Positions 3,372 to 52,324 are shown, counted from the stretch's first letter. The stretch: DNA of 64,000 nucleotides from an uncultured Dehalococcoidales bacterium (GCA_964578745.1 CAZODZ010000002.1:17123-81122), one strand, 5' to 3'. Notes: a model not told the origin generated them from the letters alone. A program made the numbers and translations.

Positions 3372-3445
3372 TGGGCCATTGTGGACTCGAACCACAGACC
3401 CCGGTCTTATCAGGACCGTGCTCTAGCCGACTGAGCTAATGGCCC
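3372..3445 (-). tRNA. tRNA-Ile (anticodon GAT)
   Basis: The reverse complement folds as GGGCCATTAGCTCAGTCGGCTAGAGCACGGTCCTGATAAGACCGGGGTCTGTGGTTCGAGTCCACAATGGCCCA. It has a 7-bp acceptor stem, a GGTTCGAGTCC T-arm and the anticodon loop CTGATAA. CCA is not encoded. Confidence 0.85.
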
Positions 3446-45495: not shown

Positions 45496-47196
45496 TCAGG
45501 CGACTATCTGGAAGCGGCTGACGTCAACTACGCCTTTGTCGGTGATGCGCAGTTCCGGGATTACCGGCAACGCGAGGAAGGATAGTAAGGCAAAGGGGGC
45601 TGGTGGGACTTTGCCCAGTGCCCTTGCAGCCGATTCTACAGCTTGCTCGTCAGTCAGCACCCGCGCGAGCGGTGCCTGAGAGAGAAGTCCGGCTACCGGC
45701 AAGGGAAGCCGAGCCTTCAGCTCTCCGTCCGCATACACTGCCAAGCCACCACCGCTCTCTTCAAGGGCGTGGATGGCGCCCAGAATATCCTCGTCGGTGA
45801 CTCCAACTGCCAGCAGGTTGTGGGAATCGTGGGCGACGGATGTCGCAAGCGCGCCACGTTCGAGACCAAAGCCGTGTACGAGTCCCTTGCCAACGGCTCC
45901 GCTGGCATGATGACGTTCCACGACGACTAACTTGAGCAGATCCCTGTCGATGTCGCTCACGATATTCCCGTCCTGCACTGCAGGCACGCACTGCAGCCTG
46001 CGTGTTACTATCTGACCGGGCATCAGTCCGATTGTCGGAAACTCGCCGCCCGTGTGGCGTAGTCGGAGCGATTCGAGCGTTGTCCCGCCGGTATGGATGC
46101 TGTCGGTCAGCTCGGCGCCCGGAGTTGGTGAATCGAAAAGCGGGTTGCCGGCAACCGCAACAAGCACTCCGTTCCGGTATACACGATCGACCTGAAACTC
46201 GTTTAAGTCATCTATGGTAATAAGGTCGGCTTTTCTCCCCGGGCCGATGAACCCTCTGTCATGCAGCCGGAAATAGTGGGCTGGACTGAGTGTCGCCAGT
46301 TGTACTGCCCGTACAGGTGCCATTCCCATGGCAATGGCCCGCCGCACAACGTGGTCGATGTCCCCTTCATTCTTGAGATCGACGGCGCTTCTGTCGTCGA
46401 CGACGAGCATACATCGGGTGTAAGTTGAGTCGCTGACAACCGGCAGGAGAGCCTGCAAGTTCTTCTCGGAAGAGCCCTCGCGCAGCATGATATACATACC
46501 TTTGTGGAGCTTCTCCGCAGCCTCTTCATACGTGGTGCACTCGTGGTCGGACATCACACCTGCTGCAATGTATGCGTCGAGGTTGGTGCCTGACAGCCCT
46601 GGCGCGTGACCGTCAATAGGACGACCACGGGCTGCATCGATCTTGGCCAGCGCCTCCTCGTCGCCGGCAATAACGCCGGGATAATTCATCATCTCCCCCA
46701 GGCCGATGACCCCTGGTCTCTGCAGCAGTGTGCGCACTTCCTTTGAAGAGATCCTGGCGCCTGACGTCTCAAGTGGAGTCGCTGGTACGCAGGAGGGAGC
46801 CATGAATCGCATATCCAGCGGCAGTCTCTCTGCCCATTCCATGCAGAACTCGATGCCCGCCATGCCTGCGACGTTGGCGATTTCGTGCAGGTCGGTGACA
46901 ACCGTGAGCGTTCCTCGCGGGACAACTGCCTCGGCATATCGTGCTGGATGCAGCATTGAACTTTCGATATGGGTGTGACCGTCGATGAGAGCCGGCGCTA
47001 CGAACGCACCTTGCAGATCAACAATCTGACGCCCCTTGGTGTAGGAACCAATTCCTGCAATGGTGTCGCCGCAAATGGCGATGTTGGCCTTGTCGATGCT
47101 TCCCGTGACCGTGTTGATGATGCGGCCGTTCTTCAACACCAGGTCGGCTTCAGTTTGGCCCCGTGCCACCGCAATGAGTTCATGAACTGGCATCAT
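45496..47196 (-). CDS. ade: adenine deaminase
   Basis: It has an amidohydrolase metal site (IDGHTHIES) and the AdeC-family body. The likely start is the MMPVHEL methionine pair at 47196/47193, just after the hpt stop. Confidence 0.8.
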   Translation of the reverse strand: MMPVHELIAVARGQTEADLVLKNGRIINTVTGSIDKANIAICGDTIAGIGSYTKGRQIVDLQGAFVAPALIDGHTHIESSMLHPARYAEAVVPRGTLTVVTDLHEIANVAGMAGIEFCMEWAERLPLDMRFMAPSCVPATPLETSGARISSKEVRTLLQRPGVIGLGEMMNYPGVIAGDEEALAKIDAARGRPIDGHAPGLSGTNLDAYIAAGVMSDHECTTYEEAAEKLHKGMYIMLREGSSEKNLQALLPVVSDSTYTRCMLVVDDRSAVDLKNEGDIDHVVRRAIAMGMAPVRAVQLATLSPAHYFRLHDRGFIGPGRKADLITIDDLNEFQVDRVYRNGVLVAVAGNPLFDSPTPGAELTDSIHTGGTTLESLRLRHTGGEFPTIGLMPGQIVTRRLQCVPAVQDGNIVSDIDRDLLKLVVVERHHASGAVGKGLVHGFGLERGALATSVAHDSHNLLAVGVTDEDILGAIHALEESGGGLAVYADGELKARLPLPVAGLLSQAPLARVLTDEQAVESAARALGKVPPAPFALLSFLALPVIPELRITDKGVVDVSRFQIVA

Positions 47197-47716
47197 TGTG
47201 TTCCAGTGCGTAGATGTCAGGCAGGTATCGGAACTTGTTGTCGAAATCGAGGCCGTAGCCAACTACGAAGGCATCAGGCACAGCAAATCCGATATAGTCG
47301 ATGTCGACCGGAATCTCGCGCCGCGACGGCTTGTCAGCGAGAGCACATACACTGACCGAACTGGCGCCAAGTTCTTTCAGGTACCTGCAGACAAAGTCCA
47401 CGGTATAACCGGTGTCAACAATATCCTCGACAATCAGGGCATCCTTGCCTCTCACGTCTGTGGTCAGTCCCTGCTGTAGAGACACCTTGCGGGAAGTCTC
47501 CGTCCCGCCTCCGTAGCTGGAGACCGTGATGAAGTCCACTTCAATTGGCAAATCGAGTTGCCGCACGAGGTCTGCCATGAAGATGAACGCACCTTTAAGT
47601 ATGCCGACAACAACGAGTTTCCGGCCCCGGTAATCCGCAGATATTTCCGCAGCAAGTCGCGACACGGCCTGCTCGATGTCCTTTCGGGGGATAAGCAGTT
47701 CAAGTCCCTTGGCCAT
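47180..47716 (-). CDS. hpt: hypoxanthine-guanine phosphoribosyltransferase
   Basis: It has the PRPP motif LIVEDIVDTGYT and an HPRT fold. A GAAGGAA RBS supports the ATG at 47716, which avoids overlap with the upstream fusion gene. Confidence 0.8.
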   Translation of the reverse strand: MAKGLELLIPRKDIEQAVSRLAAEISADYRGRKLVVVGILKGAFIFMADLVRQLDLPIEVDFITVSSYGGGTETSRKVSLQQGLTTDVRGKDALIVEDIVDTGYTVDFVCRYLKELGASSVSVCALADKPSRREIPVDIDYIGFAVPDAFVVGYGLDFDNKFRYLPDIYALEHNDASS

Positions 47717-49166
47717 CGGTTCCTTCAGCATCATGTTCATGCGGCTGTTTTTCTGTCAGTATGCCGATAAAGGGCAAATTGCGGTACTCGTCCTTGTAGT
47801 CAAGTCCGTACCCGACAAGAAACTCGTCAGGTATCTCGAATCCTACGTAATCGAGCTTCACATTGGCCAGGCGCTGTGTCTTCCTGTCCAGTAGCGTGCA
47901 TACGCGCAGGCTGGCAGGCTTGTGTGCTCTCAAGTGTGACAGAACGTAATTAAGTGTCATGCCGGTGTCAACAATGTCTTCAACCATCAGCACATGCTGG
48001 TCTGCGATGCTGTTGTCGAGATCACGCGTGATCTTCACTACCTCGCCGTCTCCGCCGTAGTGCGAGATGTCCATGTAGTCGACTTTGACCGGAATGGACA
48101 TATGTCTTATCAGGTCGGAGAGGAAACACACGACGCCCTTGAGAATGCCGACCACTACAACTGTCTTGCCTTCGTAGTCCTTTGATATCTGGCGCGCCAG
48201 TGAGCGGACTCTGCGCTGTATCTGGGTAGAGCTGTAAAGGACCCGGCCGACACCTTCGACCTTGGCGTCTCCGCCTGGCCCGTAGCCATACTTGGATAGC
48301 AGCTTGACGAAGTCCTTCTTGGTAACAAGCCGGATATTGATGTCTGGGTACATCTCGCGCAGCTTCCTCACCTTCCGGTTCTTTTCCGTGATGAGGTCCT
48401 GCTTCATCGTCGTCAGTTCGAGGTACATATCCAGCTCAGGCAGATAGAAATCAGGCGTGAACATCTGCGAGACGCCGCTGCCATTCCACGCCAGAGGGAA
48501 GGATCTTGGTTCGTAGAGCCACTCAATCTGGTAGAAGTCGAGGAGATTCGCAAACTCGGCCTCGCTCTCATGAGCGAACTCGACGGACCTGAGGCGTCCG
48601 CTGCCAGCGGAGTAGACTGGAGAACGAGCCGAGCGTTCGCGCGCTTTCCATACGCGTTCTTTGAATTGCTGTAGTTCGGCTCTCTCAAGTACCACTGAGC
48701 AGACCGATGCGGCGGATCTGAGGAAGTCCTTTTCCGCTGTGGATAAGTCTCGCGATTCGCGTGAGTAAATGCGGAGTTCTCCAATAGTCTCGTCACCACG
48801 TAAGATGGGAGCCGCGGCGATAGAATTGACGTGCTGAGATTCGGCCACATCCGGGTGCTGCAAGCGCTTGTCTGTTGGCGCGTGTGTTACGACTGCGATG
48901 TTGCCCTCCAAGACTTCCGGCAGGCTTTGACGTGCCATCAATGGGCCTTTTCGCAGGTAGAGGTCACTCAGCCCGAACGCGCCAACCGTAGTCAGATAGT
49001 TGCGCTTGGGGTCGAGAAGCAACACGCGGCACCCGTTCATGTCAGTTGCCTTCGCGACTGCCTTGGCGATGGCGTTGCAGGTGCGCCTCAGTGTGAGGCC
49101 GGAATTGGCAACGCTGACTATGTGCTGAAGTGCCGAACAATAGCGCGCCCTTGACGTTGTCACCAC
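47700..49166 (-). CDS. three-domain protein: GAF, a central restriction-endonuclease-like(?) domain and an HPRT domain
   Basis: The N-terminal 160 aa are GAF-like. The C-terminal 180 aa are a second HPRT (VVVGILKG..., VLMVEDIVDTGMT). The central 120 aa carry PDFYLPEL...YLELTTMK. The gene sits 20 nt downstream of nrdJ. Confidence 0.6.
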   Translation of the reverse strand: MVTTSRARYCSALQHIVSVANSGLTLRRTCNAIAKAVAKATDMNGCRVLLLDPKRNYLTTVGAFGLSDLYLRKGPLMARQSLPEVLEGNIAVVTHAPTDKRLQHPDVAESQHVNSIAAAPILRGDETIGELRIYSRESRDLSTAEKDFLRSAASVCSVVLERAELQQFKERVWKARERSARSPVYSAGSGRLRSVEFAHESEAEFANLLDFYQIEWLYEPRSFPLAWNGSGVSQMFTPDFYLPELDMYLELTTMKQDLITEKNRKVRKLREMYPDINIRLVTKKDFVKLLSKYGYGPGGDAKVEGVGRVLYSSTQIQRRVRSLARQISKDYEGKTVVVVGILKGVVCFLSDLIRHMSIPVKVDYMDISHYGGDGEVVKITRDLDNSIADQHVLMVEDIVDTGMTLNYVLSHLRAHKPASLRVCTLLDRKTQRLANVKLDYVGFEIPDEFLVGYGLDYKDEYRNLPFIGILTEKQPHEHDAEGTDGQGT

Positions 49167-49185: not shown

Positions 49186-51690
49186 TCACGAGCACTTGGT
49201 GTAGCCGCAGCCAGGGCAGATGCTGCACCCCTCCTGGTATATTAGTGTTCCCCCGCACTCGGGACACTGCGCTGGCATCGCTGACTCCTTCGGTCTCGTC
49301 GACGCACTCTCGATCGCTGTCCTGTCGCTAACATACTTCTCAAGGACGCTAGCTATGGCGTCCGCACAAGACGTGATTGCGCGTCCGTGTTCCCACGATA
49401 TCGAAGGGCAACGAATTCCGCGGAGGTTCTTCACAATTGAGGCTGGATCTAGGCCACAGCGCAGTGCATTGGATATTAGCCGGCTCGTGGCCTCGAGTTG
49501 GGCTGCGGCACACCCGCCAGCTTTGCCCAGCGTCGCAAACGTCTCGCATGCACCGTGTTCGTCGAAGTTGATGGTGACATACATATTGCCGCAACCTGTG
49601 CTTACCCTCTCGGTAATGCCTCTGGTAACCTTGGGTCGTGCCCGTGGGCGAAGCATCTCTGGTTCCGCTGTCCGGGCCGATCCGGCAGTCAGCACCTGGT
49701 CCTGTCGGCTGCCATCGCGGTAGATTGTGATGCCCTTAAGGTGGTGCTCATATGCGGCCATGTAGACATGTTTAACATCATCGCGAGTCGCTGACTGGCT
49801 GAAGTTGACCGTCTTGGATACGGCACTGTCGGTGTAGCGCTGAAAGGCTGCCTGCATCCTTACGTGCCAGTCGGGTGACACATCGTATGCGGTCACGAAG
49901 ATGCGCTTCACATCGTCCGGCACGCCCTCGATGTCTGCCAGCCTAGTTCCGGCCGCAAGCGTGCGCATCAGTTCTTCACTATAGAAACCACCCTCTCTTG
50001 CTTCTTTCTCAAAGTAGTAGTTGACCTCGAGAAAATCCTCTTTGTCCAGAATGCGGCGCACATAGGTGAGAGCGAACACTGGCTCGATACCACTTGAACA
50101 ATTGGCCACGATGCTGAGGCTGCCGGTGGGAGCGATCGTTGTACGGGATGCATTGCGGTAGCGGGGGCCGCCAGGGATGTCATATATGCTGCCCTCGAAT
50201 GCGGGGAACACACCGCGACTTTTGGCTAGGTCGATGGACGCCTGGTTGGCGGTCTCCGAGACCAGCCTCATTACGTGTTCCGCTGTCTGCAGGGCTTCCT
50301 CGCTGTTGTACGGTATGCGAAGCCTGATCAGCATGTCCGCGAAACCCATTACACCGAGGCCGATCTTCCGCGTCGCGTGTGTTTTCTCGCGTATCTCAGG
50401 TAGGGGATACCGATTGACTTCAATGACGTCGTCCAGAAAGCGGACTGCAAGCCGGACCGTCTCTGTGAGACGCTCGGTATCTATGGCTGGGCCCGACGGC
50501 GACTCATAAACCATCTTGGAAAGGTTGATGGAGCCGAGATTGCACGATTCGTACGGCAGCAGCGGCTGTTCGCCGCACGGGTTGGTGCTTTCGATTGCGC
50601 CGAGATGTGGAGTAGGGTTGCATCGGTTTATCTCGTCTAGGAAGATTATGCCGGGGTCGCCTGTGAGCCACGCGGTGTCGACTATCAGATCGAAGATGTC
50701 TCGTGCCCTGCGTGTATCGACAGCCTGGCCAGTCCGAGGATTGCGTAGCTCATATTCAGTGTCGTCGATTACTGCTTGCATGAAGTCGTCGGTCACCGCT
50801 ACCGACAGGTTGAAGTTGGTAAGCACGCCGGGGTCCTTTTTCGCCGTGATGAAGCGTTCGATGTCAGGGTGTGTCACGTCTAGGATGGCCATGTTCGCGC
50901 CTCGGCGCATCCCTCCCTGTTTGATCACGTCAGTTGTCCGGTCGAATACCTGCATGAATGACAAAGGCCCGCTTGCAACTCCACCGGTGCTTCCGACCCT
51001 GTCTTTCTCCGGACGAAGGTGTGAGAACGAGAATCCGGTGCCGCCGCCGCTCTTGTGTATCAGCGCTGTGTACTTGACTGCATCGAAGATGGACTCCATG
51101 GAGTCCTCCACCGGCAGGACGAAACAGGCCGACAGCTGCCCCAGTTCCCGCCCGGCGTTCATGAGTGTGGGGGAGTTGGGCAAGAAATCGAGATTCGCCA
51201 TCACTCTGTAAAAGGCGTCTTCCCAGTAGGCGCAGTCCTCTCCCGGGTTCAGAATTGTCTCGGCTGCAGCTACGTGTCGGGCGACACGCCTGAACATCTG
51301 TTCCGGTGTCTCAACAGGCTCGCCGTTTCCGTCTTTCGCAAGATACCGGCGTTTCAGAACGGTAAGCGCGTTCTTGGATAATTGAATGCCACTACATTGT
51401 GGTTCGCCGCCTGTCGATGATAGTATCGGCAACTGTCTCGCCTTTCCGACTCGGGATCGCCGGCGGGAATGCCTCGGTCCAGATGTCGTTACATAGCCTT
51501 CCATACCTGGCAGGGGTCGAGCGGTGCCAAGCCGCTCGCTCACCTGCACACTTAGTTGTTCAAGAAGGTCGCGATCGTTCACTCCCACAGATTCGGCGGC
51601 AGCAAAGACTGCACGCACCACCTGCTCTTCGGTAAGTGGCGTTGTCTCCTTCGCCTTGCCTGTTCGTGCCATGTGTGCCGTCTGCCTCAC
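49186..51690 (-). CDS. nrdJ: adenosylcobalamin-dependent ribonucleotide reductase (class II)
   Basis: The 834-aa product has the NrdJ core (LSKNALTVLKRRYL, the active-site region) and a C-terminal Cys4 zinc ribbon (CPECGG...CPGCG). The N-terminal 100 aa or so are uncharacterised. Confidence 0.85.
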   Translation of the reverse strand: MRQTAHMARTGKAKETTPLTEEQVVRAVFAAAESVGVNDRDLLEQLSVQVSERLGTARPLPGMEGYVTTSGPRHSRRRSRVGKARQLPILSSTGGEPQCSGIQLSKNALTVLKRRYLAKDGNGEPVETPEQMFRRVARHVAAAETILNPGEDCAYWEDAFYRVMANLDFLPNSPTLMNAGRELGQLSACFVLPVEDSMESIFDAVKYTALIHKSGGGTGFSFSHLRPEKDRVGSTGGVASGPLSFMQVFDRTTDVIKQGGMRRGANMAILDVTHPDIERFITAKKDPGVLTNFNLSVAVTDDFMQAVIDDTEYELRNPRTGQAVDTRRARDIFDLIVDTAWLTGDPGIIFLDEINRCNPTPHLGAIESTNPCGEQPLLPYESCNLGSINLSKMVYESPSGPAIDTERLTETVRLAVRFLDDVIEVNRYPLPEIREKTHATRKIGLGVMGFADMLIRLRIPYNSEEALQTAEHVMRLVSETANQASIDLAKSRGVFPAFEGSIYDIPGGPRYRNASRTTIAPTGSLSIVANCSSGIEPVFALTYVRRILDKEDFLEVNYYFEKEAREGGFYSEELMRTLAAGTRLADIEGVPDDVKRIFVTAYDVSPDWHVRMQAAFQRYTDSAVSKTVNFSQSATRDDVKHVYMAAYEHHLKGITIYRDGSRQDQVLTAGSARTAEPEMLRPRARPKVTRGITERVSTGCGNMYVTINFDEHGACETFATLGKAGGCAAAQLEATSRLISNALRCGLDPASIVKNLRGIRCPSISWEHGRAITSCADAIASVLEKYVSDRTAIESASTRPKESAMPAQCPECGGTLIYQEGCSICPGCGYTKCS

Positions 51691-51695
51691 AGTCC

Positions 51696-52175
51696 TCAGC
51701 TGTTGCCGGGTGCAGAAGGGGTGTCCTGGCTTTCTTTGGACAGGCTCTCCAGTGCTTCCTTGAGAGCACCTATGTCGGTGAATTCCCGGTACACACTGGC
51801 AAACCGTATGTATGCGATGTGGTCGACTCGTTCGAGCTGGTCCATGACGAGATCCCCGATTGTGGAACTCGAGACTTCCACTCTGCCAAGGCCATGCAAT
51901 TGGTCCTCTATGCCGGTAATGATCTTCTCAACCGTTCCTGTCGGCAACGGTCGCTTCTCGCACGCCTTTCTTATGCCCGAAGCCAGCTTTTCGCGGTTAT
52001 ATGGCTCGCGTCTGCTGTCCTTCTTCACGACATAGAGAGGATTGCTGTAGACCCGCTCGGTTGTAGTGAAGCGTGCGCCACATGCGACACAGACCCTTCT
52101 GCGACGGACTTCTCCTCCCATTCCCCTCGAGTCTACGACTCTCGAGTCGGGGGCGCCGCAAAAAGGGCATTTCAC
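51696..52175 (-). CDS. nrdR: transcriptional repressor NrdR
   Basis: It has a zinc ribbon (KCPFCG...CVACG) and an ATP-cone. It starts at the GTG at 52175 with a GAGG RBS. The listed N-extension is not conserved. Confidence 0.8.
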   Translation of the reverse strand: MKCPFCGAPDSRVVDSRGMGGEVRRRRVCVACGARFTTTERVYSNPLYVVKKDSRREPYNREKLASGIRKACEKRPLPTGTVEKIITGIEDQLHGLGRVEVSSSTIGDLVMDQLERVDHIAYIRFASVYREFTDIGALKEALESLSKESQDTPSAPGNS

Positions 52176-52324
52176 TGGGCATGCCTCACAATTTGTTGTG
52201 CCACAAACAAAGTGTACCACCACATGTTGGGGGCTCCAAGATAAGAGGAGCTCTGCAGTGGTGTCTTGAAAAGCCAACGGGGAGGACGGAGAACCCGTCC
52301 TCCCCGTGCGGGCGGGACAGGCAA

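What the first reader, a model, noticed from the sequence alone, without database searches (positions are those of the whole stretch)
47700..49166. GAF / nuclease-like / HPRT three-domain fusion immediately downstream of nrdJ and upstream of a canonical hpt
The 488-aa protein has three parts. The N-terminal 160 aa are a GAF-type small-molecule-binding domain. The central 120 aa carry PDFYLPEL...MYLELTTMK, which resembles a PD-(D/E)XK restriction-endonuclease-like core. The C-terminal 180 aa are a complete second hypoxanthine phosphoribosyltransferase, with PRPP loop VLMVEDIVDTGMT. A canonical stand-alone hpt and adenine deaminase follow on the same strand, and the fusion sits 20 nt after the B12-dependent ribonucleotide reductase. 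I do not recognise this architecture as a described family. It could be a ligand-gated purine-salvage enzyme, a PRPP or nucleotide-sensing regulator of the nrd/purine operon, or a nucleotide-modifying factor.
Basis: partly seen in the sequence, partly recalled or inferred. Interest (0 to 1): 0.65.

Follow-up and report, generated by a model that had tools for sequence, protein, structure and literature searches.

The report
Sensor–nuclease-like–HPRT fusion; conserved X–hpt module
The gene is real and encodes a GAF sensor, a phage-endonuclease-I-like domain and a purine-salvage enzyme (HPRT) in one chain, and it is the fused form of a widespread but undescribed gene pair in which this nuclease-like protein sits next to HPRT, so many bacteria seem to run purine salvage with a partner nobody has studied.

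Summary
ORF 47700-49166(-) is one intact gene: GAF (res 26-162), a ~100-aa PD-(D/E)XK domain 'X' (197-296) and an HPRT domain (309-470; TIGR01203 200 bits, cutoff 150). It lies 19-22 nt after nrdJ and before a canonical hpt and ade.

X is a true homologue of T7 endonuclease I (profile vs PDB 3CAE, E 1.6e-6; AF2 pLDDT 87.5; best BFVD hits are phage 'Endonuclease I'). It keeps the three catalytic carboxylates (E202, D239, E250). The catalytic Lys is an invariant Thr, while K262 and K265 in the next helix are conserved.

The architecture is common in Dehalococcoidia and is annotated only as 'HPRT'. nrdJ lies directly upstream in 78/78 loci.

X is also an autonomous family (at least 8000 clusters) in Chloroflexota, Actinobacteria, Armatimonadota and Firmicutes. 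An HPRT gene follows it on the same strand in about 60 of 69 informative metagenome loci and 4/4 MAG loci. The window protein is therefore a Rosetta-stone fusion of an obligate X+HPRT module.

Function is untested. My best guess is a metal/phosphate-binding, possibly hydrolytic, partner of HPRT under GAF control, co-expressed with ribonucleotide reductase. I found no literature on it.

The parts
47700..49166 (-). Whole GAF-X-HPRT gene (488 aa from GTG 49166; probable true start is GTG 49163, giving 487 aa; stop codon at 47700-47702).
   Evidence: P0001 is 100% identical and 487 aa.
48681..49091 (-). GAF domain (res 26-162). G45-C46-R47 and the GLSDLYLRKGP motif are invariant. The ligand is unknown.
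   Evidence: Pfam GAF 35 bits. AF2 pLDDT is 85-96 over this region. The nearest PDB entry is the PtsP GAF 3CI6, E 1.7e-5.
48579..48680 (-). Long helix leaving the GAF domain, then a variable low-complexity tether (res 163-196).
   Evidence: AF2 helix 143-180. This stretch carries the indels and low conservation in alignment A1.
48279..48578 (-). X domain (res 197-296): endonuclease-I-family PD-(D/E)XK fold. E202, E219, P238-D239-F240, E250, K265 and P274 are invariant. T252, T253 and K262 are >=97% conserved. The basic helix alpha2 spans 256-272.
48243..48278 (-). Short conserved connector from X to HPRT (res 297-308; K302 and G305 invariant). It follows the invariant KYGYG motif (K292-G296) that ends X.
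   Evidence: Alignment A1.
47757..48242 (-). HPRT domain (res 309-470). The PRPP loop VEDIVDTGMT is intact. Flexible loop II is shortened by 3 residues and has an H-Y dyad. Arg replaces the O6-recognising Lys.
49186..51690 (-). nrdJ-type (class II) ribonucleotide reductase. It lies directly upstream in every fused-family locus that reaches far enough.
   Evidence: Pfam Ribonuc_red_lgN/lgC + TSCPD. Present in 78/78 loci.
51696..52175 (-). nrdR (Zn-ribbon + ATP-cone repressor), first gene of the operon. The likely start is GTG 52175, giving 'VKCPFCG'.
   Evidence: nrdR is upstream in 55/57 loci.
47180..47740 (-). Second, canonical stand-alone hpt (normal SSY loop, LADK). It is 42% identical to the fused HPRT domain. 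Its annotated start overlaps the end of the fusion gene by 41 nt.
   Evidence: Present in only 10/59 related loci.
45496..47262 (-). Adenine deaminase, last gene of the cluster. Its true start is probably about 22 codons into the listed ORF.
52277..52307 (-). Strong terminator-like hairpin (14 bp, 10 GC, followed by a T-run) after ftsZ. It marks the 5' boundary of the nrdR-nrdJ-fusion-hpt-ade unit. No terminator-like site lies on this strand within the unit.

Best explanation
This is one real gene for a three-part protein. It is the fused, Dehalococcoidia-specific version of a two-gene module found across Terrabacteria: a ~100-residue endonuclease-I-family protein ('X') encoded directly upstream of hpt.

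I infer that X and HPRT work as one physical unit. X has kept the metal-binding carboxylate triad of T7 endonuclease I. Its catalytic lysine has moved out of the beta-strand (T252) and is probably supplied from the basic helix alpha2 (K262 or K265). X is therefore most likely a Mg2+-dependent module that binds phosphoesters, and may still hydrolyse them, acting on a nucleic acid or nucleotide substrate. The HPRT half carries out, or at least senses, 6-oxopurine phosphoribosyl transfer.

The flexibly tethered GAF domain adds small-molecule control. In Dehalococcoidia the protein is made from the NrdR-controlled nrdR-nrdJ operon, so purine salvage rises and falls together with deoxyribonucleotide synthesis.

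Shown: the domain identities, the conservation pattern, the X-hpt linkage and the nrd linkage.

Inferred: a physical X-HPRT complex, metal binding by X, lysine migration, and the nature of the substrate.

Unknown: the GAF ligand and X's substrate.

The confidence given (0.45) is for the whole mechanistic statement. For its parts: one real three-domain gene about 0.97; X+HPRT as a functional module about 0.9; X catalytically active about 0.4-0.45.
For: (1) Domains.

(2) X is under purifying selection about as strong as HPRT and much stronger than GAF. Median identity to the window protein across 83 loci is X 70%, HPRT 73%, GAF 51%. Across 143 representatives from several phyla, E202, E219, D239, E250, K265 and P274 are invariant.

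(3) Gene-pair and fusion evidence. All 4 stand-alone X genes examined (Actinobacteria, Armatimonadota and Firmicutes MAGs, plus one unnamed JGI contig) are followed within -4 to +24 nt by an HGPRTase equivalog scoring 186-207 bits. Among 80 metagenome loci chosen by X similarity alone, about 60 of the 69 with enough downstream sequence have HPRT on the same strand within 550 nt; 41 of those are within 150 nt. X-HPRT fusions without GAF recur, for example P0123, P0134, P0142, P0153 and T. roseum WP_012643103.1.

(4) The gene order X then hpt equals the domain order in the fusion, and the connector is short and conserved.

(5) There is a precedent for the catalytic Lys moving into the second core helix of this fold: Pa4535, motif PD-EXX-K (PMC3424549). 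Helix alpha2 of X has a median net charge of +7.

(6) Operon: nrdJ is directly upstream in 78/78 loci and nrdR in 55/57. The gap is 19-22 nt and no terminator lies between nrdR and ade.

(7) Most fused loci (49/59) lack an adjacent second hpt. The fused domain keeps the PRPP loop, the Lys68 equivalent, the Asp137 equivalent and Arg199. It may therefore be the working HPRT there.

(8) The context is housekeeping (ftsA-ftsZ, trmD-rplS-rnhB, nusA-infB) and there is no significant PADLOC hit.
Against: - No biochemical data exist.
- The canonical Lys67 is essential in T7 endonuclease I (my own recollection of the mutant literature; PDB 2PFJ carries Ala at that position). In every X it is replaced by Thr.
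- The full-length AF2 model was too poor (pLDDT 63) to show any X-HPRT interface.
- N-terminal partners of X (GAF, P-loop-degenerate Cytidylate_kin2, one MerR HTH) would fit equally well if X were a ligand-binding or regulatory module.
- In some fused lineages the HPRT catalytic loop is eroded. In T. roseum and P0142 the D137 equivalent is Asn and the Ser-Tyr dyad is lost. That would suit a sensor role for the PRT domain rather than an enzymatic one.
- A nuclease does not directly produce HPRT's substrates (free bases).
Confidence: 0.45

Rival explanations
1. X is a nuclease-derived but non-catalytic regulatory module. It binds a phosphorylated ligand (a nucleotide, PRPP or (p)ppGpp with Mg2+) or the HPRT itself. 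It controls HPRT activity or oligomeric state, possibly acting as a lid over the active site. GAF is a second input.
For: The catalytic Lys is lost in all X while the carboxylates and basic residues are retained. X is fused C-terminal to sensor-type or HTH modules in the way an effector-binding domain would be: a MerR HTH followed by X in P0242, and a Cytidylate_kin2-like domain lacking the P-loop Lys. The overlapping or abutting X-hpt genes suggest a stoichiometric complex. HPRT loop II is shortened or lost specifically in covalently fused forms, as if X had taken over the lid role.
Against: No PD-(D/E)XK domain is known to me as a small-molecule allosteric sensor. Invariance of all three metal ligands plus the helix Lys is more typical of a live active site, and Lys migration has a precedent. 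Only one MerR-X cluster was seen. X-adjacent HPRTs mostly keep a normal loop.
Confidence: 0.3
2. The X-HPRT unit is a nucleic-acid-binding gene regulator of the PurR/PyrR type. X binds operator DNA or leader RNA, and the PRT domain senses PRPP or purine nucleotides. The unit autoregulates the hpt (and, in Dehalococcoidia, the nrd) operon.
For: PRT-fold proteins repeatedly double as regulators (B. subtilis PurR and PyrR; my own knowledge). NCBIfam gives weak PyrR-family hits to the PRT domain. X has a very basic helix and structural neighbours that bind RNA without cutting it (RAP domains). A small gene upstream of the gene it regulates is a common layout. The HPRT half is degenerate in T. roseum. 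The window's clade carries a separate canonical hpt.
Against: X is far more conserved (55-70% identity between phyla) than transcription factors usually are. The acidic catalytic triad would repel nucleic acid unless a metal is bound. The HPRT partners score as full HGPRTase equivalogs. No conserved RNA element was detected upstream in the window or in 18 X-hpt loci.
Confidence: 0.17
3. This is an ordinary ligand-gated HPRT. X is merely a structural spacer or dimerisation element with no function of its own.
For: T7 endonuclease I is an intimately domain-swapped dimer (PMC3424549), and HPRTs are oligomeric enzymes.
Against: X exists as a free-standing protein in thousands of clusters. It is about as conserved as the HPRT domain and much more than GAF, and it keeps active-site-type residues invariant. 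None of this is expected of a passive spacer.
Confidence: 0.06
4. A mobile defence or toxin module (nuclease effector plus PRTase), or an assembly or frameshift artefact.
For: PRTase and PD-(D/E)XK domains do occur in defence systems. There are weak PADLOC hits (E 1e-4 to 2e-3) to generic PD-DEXK models.
Against: The context is a conserved core-genome one next to ftsAZ/nrdRJ or ribosomal/nusA genes. No hit reaches significance. X-type matches in 50,697 phage genomes are only remote endonuclease-I relatives. The ORF is contiguous in 83 loci.
Confidence: 0.02

Closest known systems
Bacteriophage T7 endonuclease I (gp3; Pfam Phage_endo_I PF05367; PDB 1FZR, 1M0D, 2PFJ, 3CAE)
   Same: The homology is detectable by profile (E 1.6e-6 over ~90 residues). 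The core is the same alpha-beta-beta-beta-alpha-beta arrangement, and the best BFVD structural matches are phage 'Endonuclease I' proteins. Glu20, Asp55 and Glu65 correspond to E202, D239 and E250. The basic helix and the 'YP..N/D-I-R/K' strand after it also align. The 2012 survey already binned Dehalococcoides and T. roseum proteins here.
   Different: The catalytic Lys67 is an invariant Thr. X has its own strongly conserved signature: FAHxSE, EWxYEP, TPDFYLP, ELTTxKQ, KNRK. It is cellular and housekeeping, it is tied to hpt, and it lacks the C-terminal part of endonuclease I. Most members, including the window protein, fall below the Pfam gathering score (15 bits against 29). No junction-resolving role is implied by its context.
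Bacterial HPRT/HGPRT (TIGR01203; e.g. Caldanaerobacter HGPRT 1R3U, Bacillus anthracis 3H83/6D9Q)
   Same: About 50% identity over the whole domain. The PRPP loop, the LKG Lys, Asp137 and the Arg199 equivalent are all conserved. It scores above the equivalog cutoff.
   Different: It carries about 300 extra N-terminal residues (GAF + X). Loop II is 3 residues shorter and has a His/Tyr-Tyr dyad instead of Ser-Tyr. In this protein the O6-recognising Lys is Arg. It is embedded in an nrdR-nrdJ operon.
PRT-fold regulators PurR (wHTH + PRT) and PyrR (UPRTase/RNA-binding) of Bacillus; TilS-HprT complex/fusion (KEGG K15780)
   Same: In each case a phosphoribosyltransferase domain is coupled to a module that binds nucleic acid, placed N-terminal or upstream. 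hpt is habitually linked to a nucleic-acid-acting partner in Terrabacteria (my own knowledge).
   Different: The N-terminal module here is neither a winged helix nor a TilS PP-loop ATPase; there is no such Pfam hit. The JGI label 'TilS/HprT' is a mis-transfer. Regulation of gene expression has not been shown.
Pa4535 (PDB 1Y0K) type PD-EXX-K active-site variant
   Same: The Lys is absent from the beta-strand motif and is supplied from the second core alpha-helix (PMC3424549). X matches this with T252 in the strand and K262/K265 in alpha2.
   Different: No detectable sequence relationship was tested or seen. Pa4535 is itself uncharacterised.

Membership tests
HPRT / HGPRTase (TIGR01203 equivalog) | Whole-domain profile score above the curated cutoff. 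| tested here: met
   200.5 bits against a cutoff of 150, res 309-470. E 1e-50 to PDB HGPRTs.
HPRT / HGPRTase (TIGR01203 equivalog) | PRPP-binding loop (V/I)-x-E-D-I-x-D-T-G-x-T, together with the Lys68, Asp137 and Arg199 equivalents (human numbering). | tested here: met
   VEDIVDTGMT, LKG and YRNLP are invariant in 32 homologues.
HPRT / HGPRTase (TIGR01203 equivalog) | Catalytic flexible loop II of canonical length with a Ser-Tyr dyad. | tested here: not met
   The loop region is 20-21 residues against 23 in the references. The dyad is H-Y or Y-Y in the fused family. The window's second hpt and most X-adjacent HPRTs are canonical.
HPRT / HGPRTase (TIGR01203 equivalog) | Lys that recognises the 6-oxo group (human K165, 'LLDK'). 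| tested here: inconclusive
   It is Arg ('LLDRK') in the window protein and its closest clade, and Lys in most of the fused family. Arg could still hydrogen-bond to O6.
HPRT / HGPRTase (TIGR01203 equivalog) | Hypoxanthine/guanine + PRPP gives IMP/GMP (enzyme activity). | not testable with these tools
   This needs an enzyme assay.
T7 endonuclease I family (PF05367) / PD-(D/E)XK superfamily | Sequence homology to the family. | tested here: met
   The family profile A3 matches 3CAE at E 1.6e-6. Some members hit PF05367 at 3e-5. The window protein alone is below the gathering score (15.1 against 29.1 bits).
T7 endonuclease I family (PF05367) / PD-(D/E)XK superfamily | Restriction-endonuclease-like alpha-beta-beta-beta-alpha-beta core fold. 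| tested here: met
T7 endonuclease I family (PF05367) / PD-(D/E)XK superfamily | Acidic catalytic residues (Glu20, Asp55, Glu65). | tested here: met
   E202, D239 and E250 are invariant in 143 representatives.
T7 endonuclease I family (PF05367) / PD-(D/E)XK superfamily | Catalytic Lys in the (D/E)-x-K motif (Lys67). | tested here: not met
   The position is Thr in 142 of 143 sequences. K262/K265 might compensate from helix alpha2, but I could not check this in 3D.
T7 endonuclease I family (PF05367) / PD-(D/E)XK superfamily | Domain-swapped homodimer and four-way-junction cleavage. | not testable with these tools
   Only monomer predictions were available.
GAF domain | Pfam GAF profile above the cutoff, and the GAF fold. 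| tested here: met
   PF01590 35 bits (cutoff 22.4) and PF13185 33.2 bits (cutoff 28.6). The AF2 region is confident. The ligand is unknown; the nearest relative is the PtsP GAF at E 1.7e-5.
Bifunctional TilS/HprT (KEGG K15780; the JGI label on homologues) | N-terminal TilS PP-loop ATPase domain. | tested here: not met
   There is no ATP_bind_3/TilS hit in Pfam or NCBIfam. The N-terminus is GAF + X.
Known anti-phage defence systems (PADLOC-DB 2.0) | A significant match to a defence-system protein model, and an island context. | tested here: not met
   The best hit is E 1.5e-3 (window protein) or 1e-4 (stand-alone X), to generic PD-DEXK segments. The synteny is core-genome.
PurR/PyrR-type PRT regulators | Sequence-specific DNA or RNA binding coupled to a PRPP/nucleotide-sensing PRT domain. 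| not testable with these tools
   There are only weak PyrR-model hits, far below cutoff (39 bits against 218). No conserved RNA element was found.

The most novel reading that the evidence does not exclude
X+HPRT is a previously unrecognised two-component enzyme or regulatory system of purine metabolism in Terrabacteria. An endonuclease-I-derived protein with a relocated catalytic lysine forms an obligate complex with HPRT. In one version it couples cleavage or recognition of a nucleic acid or nucleotide substrate directly to 6-oxopurine salvage. In the other it acts as a nuclease-fold allosteric lid and sensor for HPRT. Lineage-specific sensor add-ons (GAF, Cytidylate_kin2-like, MerR) are attached, and in Dehalococcoidia the system is wired into the NrdR/RNR regulon.
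Probability: 0.4. Interest if true: 0.78.

Novelty: new variant of a known kind. Interest (0 to 1): 0.62.

Why it matters
HPRT is a textbook salvage enzyme and a major (p)ppGpp target, and it is thought of as acting alone. Here, in thousands of genomes from Chloroflexota, Actinobacteria, Armatimonadota and Firmicutes, it comes with a highly conserved endonuclease-like partner. The partner has no family model, no name and no literature, and databases silently label the fusions 'HPRT' or 'TilS/HprT'.

If X is catalytic, this defines a new cellular activity for the phage endonuclease I fold and a direct link between nucleic-acid processing and purine salvage. If it is regulatory, it would be the first nuclease-fold allosteric module of a PRT enzyme.

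Either outcome changes how purine salvage and dNTP supply (the NrdR-NrdJ operon) should be modelled in Dehalococcoidia, which often depend on salvage. It is directly testable in a cultured organism, Thermomicrobium roseum (WP_012643103.1). It also calls for an annotation fix: a new domain family, and removal of the TilS/HprT mislabel.

Tried and rejected
- Frameshift or assembly chimera: rejected. The same contiguous ORF occurs in 83 loci and many contigs.
- JGI's 'bifunctional TilS/HprT' label: rejected. There is no TilS domain.
- Defence system or toxin: no significant PADLOC hit, and the context is core-genome.
- Phage or plasmid origin: phage matches are only remote endonuclease-I relatives. 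The plasmid search gave only the T. roseum megaplasmid hpt and a remote insert in a DnaE.
- Riboswitch or leader RNA upstream of X-hpt or in the window: none at Rfam gathering thresholds.
- A HEAT-repeat protein as a third conserved partner: it appears in only 7 of 52 loci, so it is lineage-specific.
- A conserved small gene between X and hpt in loci with a 230-270 nt gap: L111 shows plain intergenic DNA.
- Full-length AF2 model: too poor (pLDDT 63; X and part of HPRT below 50) to read domain contacts.
- AFDB fold search: the library was unavailable.
- Measuring K262/K265 to carboxylate distances: the model coordinates were not exposed to scripts.
- A strict NrdR-box consensus search found nothing near nrdR at up to 3 mismatches, although two box-like palindromes can be seen by eye.
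- Six literature searches found no description of the fusion or of the gene pair.
Full report
**1. The observation**

The minus strand carries an uninterrupted ORF at 47700-49166 (488 aa).
- The junction with nrdJ reads TGA-N19-GTG-GTG with a GGGGGAG Shine-Dalgarno. The second GTG (49163) is the likelier start: it gives 487 aa, as in the 100%-identical database protein P0001 from a Dehalococcoidia MAG, and homologues start 'MTTSR'.
- Pfam finds GAF (res 26-162) and Pribosyltran (314-458). NCBIfam's HGPRTase equivalog scores 200.5 bits against a cutoff of 150, as good as the neighbouring stand-alone hpt at 194 bits.
- nrdR, nrdJ, the fusion, hpt and adenine deaminase lie head to tail on the same strand. 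The only strong terminator-like hairpin on that strand sits after ftsZ, upstream of nrdR.
- The same contiguous three-domain ORF occurs in 83 loci, 80 of them from species-representative genomes, so it is not an assembly or frameshift artefact.

**2. The middle domain ('X')**

On its own the segment gives only weak hits to Phage_endo_I (E 0.018) and to T7 endonuclease I structures (E 0.003).
- An exhaustive search with the 126-aa segment found 1954 representative clusters (843 below 1e-10), with lengths of 99-487 aa.
- A profile of 61 diverse members matches T7 endonuclease I (3CAE) at E 1.6e-6 over about 90 residues.
- With that alignment AF2 gives a confident model (pLDDT 87.5, pTM 0.78) with the alpha-beta-beta-beta-alpha-beta restriction-endonuclease core.
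- Across 143 representatives, E202, E219, P238-D239-F240, E250, K265 and P274 are invariant. T252, T253 and K262 are at least 97% conserved.
- E202, D239 and E250 align with Glu20, Asp55 and Glu65 of T7 endonuclease I, but Lys67 aligns with the invariant T252.
- The PD-(D/E)XK survey documents a precedent for the Lys moving into the second core helix (Pa4535, PD-EXX-K). It also lists Dehalococcoides and Thermomicrobium proteins under Phage_endo_I, without mentioning phosphoribosyltransferases (PMC3424549).
- Helix alpha2 of X, which carries K262 and K265, has a median net charge of +7.

**3. X is an autonomous family tied to HPRT**

Architectures found among X proteins:
- GAF-X-HPRT
- X-HPRT without GAF
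- Cytidylate_kin2-X (20 of 60 sampled)
- one MerR-X
- stand-alone proteins of 110-190 aa, the most numerous form

The best matches are 'hypothetical proteins' from Chloroflexota, Armatimonadota, Actinobacteria and Firmicutes MAGs.

Linkage to hpt:
- All four stand-alone X genes I looked up, from different lineages, are followed by a ~185-aa gene at -4 to +24 nt. Each of those genes scores 186-207 bits on the HGPRTase equivalog.
- I scanned metagenome contigs with patterns taken from X only, and 69 loci had at least 450 nt downstream of X.
  - 41 have HPRT within 150 nt on the same strand.
  - 14 more have it 168-542 nt downstream.
  - 5 Cytidylate_kin2-X genes also have HPRT 330-395 nt downstream.
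  - 4 have it 2.1-2.7 kb upstream.
  - 4 further Cytidylate_kin2-X loci show no HPRT in the 460-670 nt of sequence available.
  - 1 stand-alone X locus has none.
- The gene order equals the domain order of the fusion.
- The cultured Thermomicrobium roseum DSM 5159 carries an X-HPRT fusion annotated simply as hpt (WP_012643103.1, 333 aa).

The window protein is therefore a Rosetta-stone fusion of a conserved X+HPRT module.

**4. The fused family and its operon**

Across the 83 fused loci, median identity to the window protein is 51% for GAF, 70% for X and 73% for HPRT. In a 32-sequence alignment X holds the longest invariant runs.
- nrdJ lies directly upstream in 78 of 78 loci that extend far enough (median apparent gap 31 nt), and nrdR in 55 of 57.
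- The second hpt and ade follow in only 10 of 59, namely the window's own subclade.
- The conserved association is therefore with the NrdR-controlled class II RNR, not with the downstream salvage genes.
- All named hits are Dehalococcoidia/Chloroflexota MAGs.

**5. The HPRT half**

It is about 50% identical to solved bacterial HGPRTs and 42% identical to the adjacent hpt.
- The PRPP loop and the Lys68, Asp137 and Arg199 equivalents are invariant.
- Flexible loop II is 3 residues shorter, with an H-Y or Y-Y dyad in place of S-Y.
- In this protein the O6-recognising Lys is Arg.
- X-adjacent but unfused HPRTs mostly keep the canonical loop.
- In the Thermomicrobia-type fusions the loop dyad is lost and the Asp137 equivalent is Asn.
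- Covalent fusion to X thus goes together with relaxation of the catalytic lid. This is compatible either with X taking over part of that role or with the PRT domain drifting towards a sensor.

**6. GAF**

It is a confident GAF fold. A long exit helix is followed by a variable, indel-rich tether to X. The nearest solved relative is the PtsP/EI-Ntr sensor GAF at E 1.7e-5, so no ligand can be inferred.

**7. Interpretation**

Shown:
- the domain identities
- purifying selection on X about as strong as on HPRT
- the X-hpt linkage across phyla
- the nrdR-nrdJ linkage in Dehalococcoidia
- the housekeeping context and the absence of defence-system signatures

Inferred:
- X and HPRT form one functional, probably physical, unit.
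- X still binds metal and phosphate, and may still hydrolyse a nucleic-acid or nucleotide substrate using a relocated lysine.
- GAF gates the unit.
- Co-transcription with nrdJ couples purine salvage to dNTP synthesis.

Rivals I cannot exclude:
- X is a non-catalytic allosteric or lid module for HPRT.
- The X-PRT unit is a PurR/PyrR-like regulator that binds nucleic acid.

A passive-linker reading and a defence or artefact reading are unlikely.

**8. Novelty**

Every domain belongs to a known superfamily, and the fusion is abundant in databases under a generic name. It is therefore not categorically new. However, the X subfamily has no model of its own. Its invariant E...E...PD...E-x-T-T...K-x-x-K signature and its near-obligate linkage to hpt appear undescribed. 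I rate it a new variant of a known kind with moderately high interest. It is readily testable in T. roseum or with recombinant proteins.

Noticed in passing
window 52187-52215 (-), just upstream of the probable nrdR start (GTG 52175): Two adjacent palindromes resembling NrdR boxes, ACACTTTGTTTGTG and CACAACAAATTGTG. A strict consensus search with up to 3 mismatches did not pick them up. They would place the whole nrdR-nrdJ-fusion-hpt-ade unit under NrdR control.
   Followed up: partly
window 52277-52307 (-): A very strong terminator-like hairpin (14 bp stem, 10 GC, T-run) between ftsZ and nrdR. The ORF listing extends nrdR to a TTG at 52277 inside this hairpin, which is almost certainly too long.
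   Followed up: partly
window 47700-47740 and 47180-47262 (-): The fusion gene and the annotated hpt start overlap by 41 nt, and hpt overlaps the longest ade ORF by 83 nt. In relatives such as L081 the genes are separated by ~6 nt or overlap by 11 nt, so the true starts of hpt and ade here are probably internal Met codons. The packing suggests translational coupling.
   Followed up: no
L099 3368-5231; also L089, L090, L092, L096: Cytidylate_kin2-like (P-loop 'GSGG', no Lys) fused to X, followed 330-395 nt downstream by an HPRT gene. This is a second sensor- or kinase-like add-on to the same X-hpt module. Sources name these proteins 'cytidylate kinase'.
   Followed up: partly
L168 5944-6945 (Thermomicrobium roseum DSM 5159 megaplasmid NC_011961, WP_012643103.1): An X-HPRT fusion in a cultured thermophile, annotated plain 'hpt'. 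Its HPRT half has EDIVNTG (Asp to Asn at the general-base position) and no Ser-Tyr loop dyad. It converges on mutM, overlapping it. P0142 is of the same type.
   Followed up: partly
L085, L087, L091, L093, L107, L111, L120 (150-440 nt upstream of X, opposite strand): A ~390-aa HEAT-repeat protein is encoded divergently from X-hpt in 7 of 52 loci. Stand-alone X also gives a weak PADLOC hit to a model called HEAT_CxxC_PD-DEXK (E 1e-4). This is probably lineage-specific synteny, but the coincidence is unexplained.
   Followed up: partly
L085 5937-10372: In an Armatimonadota MAG, X-hpt is followed by a Bmp/PnrA-type nucleoside ABC transporter operon (two ABC_tran domains, two BPD_transp_2, Bmp). 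This supports a purine-salvage setting for the module.
   Followed up: no
L170 526-5490 (Miltoncostaea oceani plasmid NZ_CP064357, dnaE): A 1654-aa DnaE carries an internal segment 35% identical to X (E 1e-6). It is probably an intein or homing-endonuclease insertion of the endonuclease I family.
   Followed up: no
Homologues P0007-P0119: JGI/IMG systematically labels the GAF-X-HPRT proteins 'bifunctional protein TilS/HprT', and some stand-alone X proteins 'hypoxanthine phosphoribosyltransferase'. Both are annotation-transfer errors.
   Followed up: yes
window 3372-3445 (-): A single tRNA gene is the only Rfam hit in the 64-kb window. No cobalamin or purine riboswitch lies near nrdJ, hpt or ade.
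   Followed up: no
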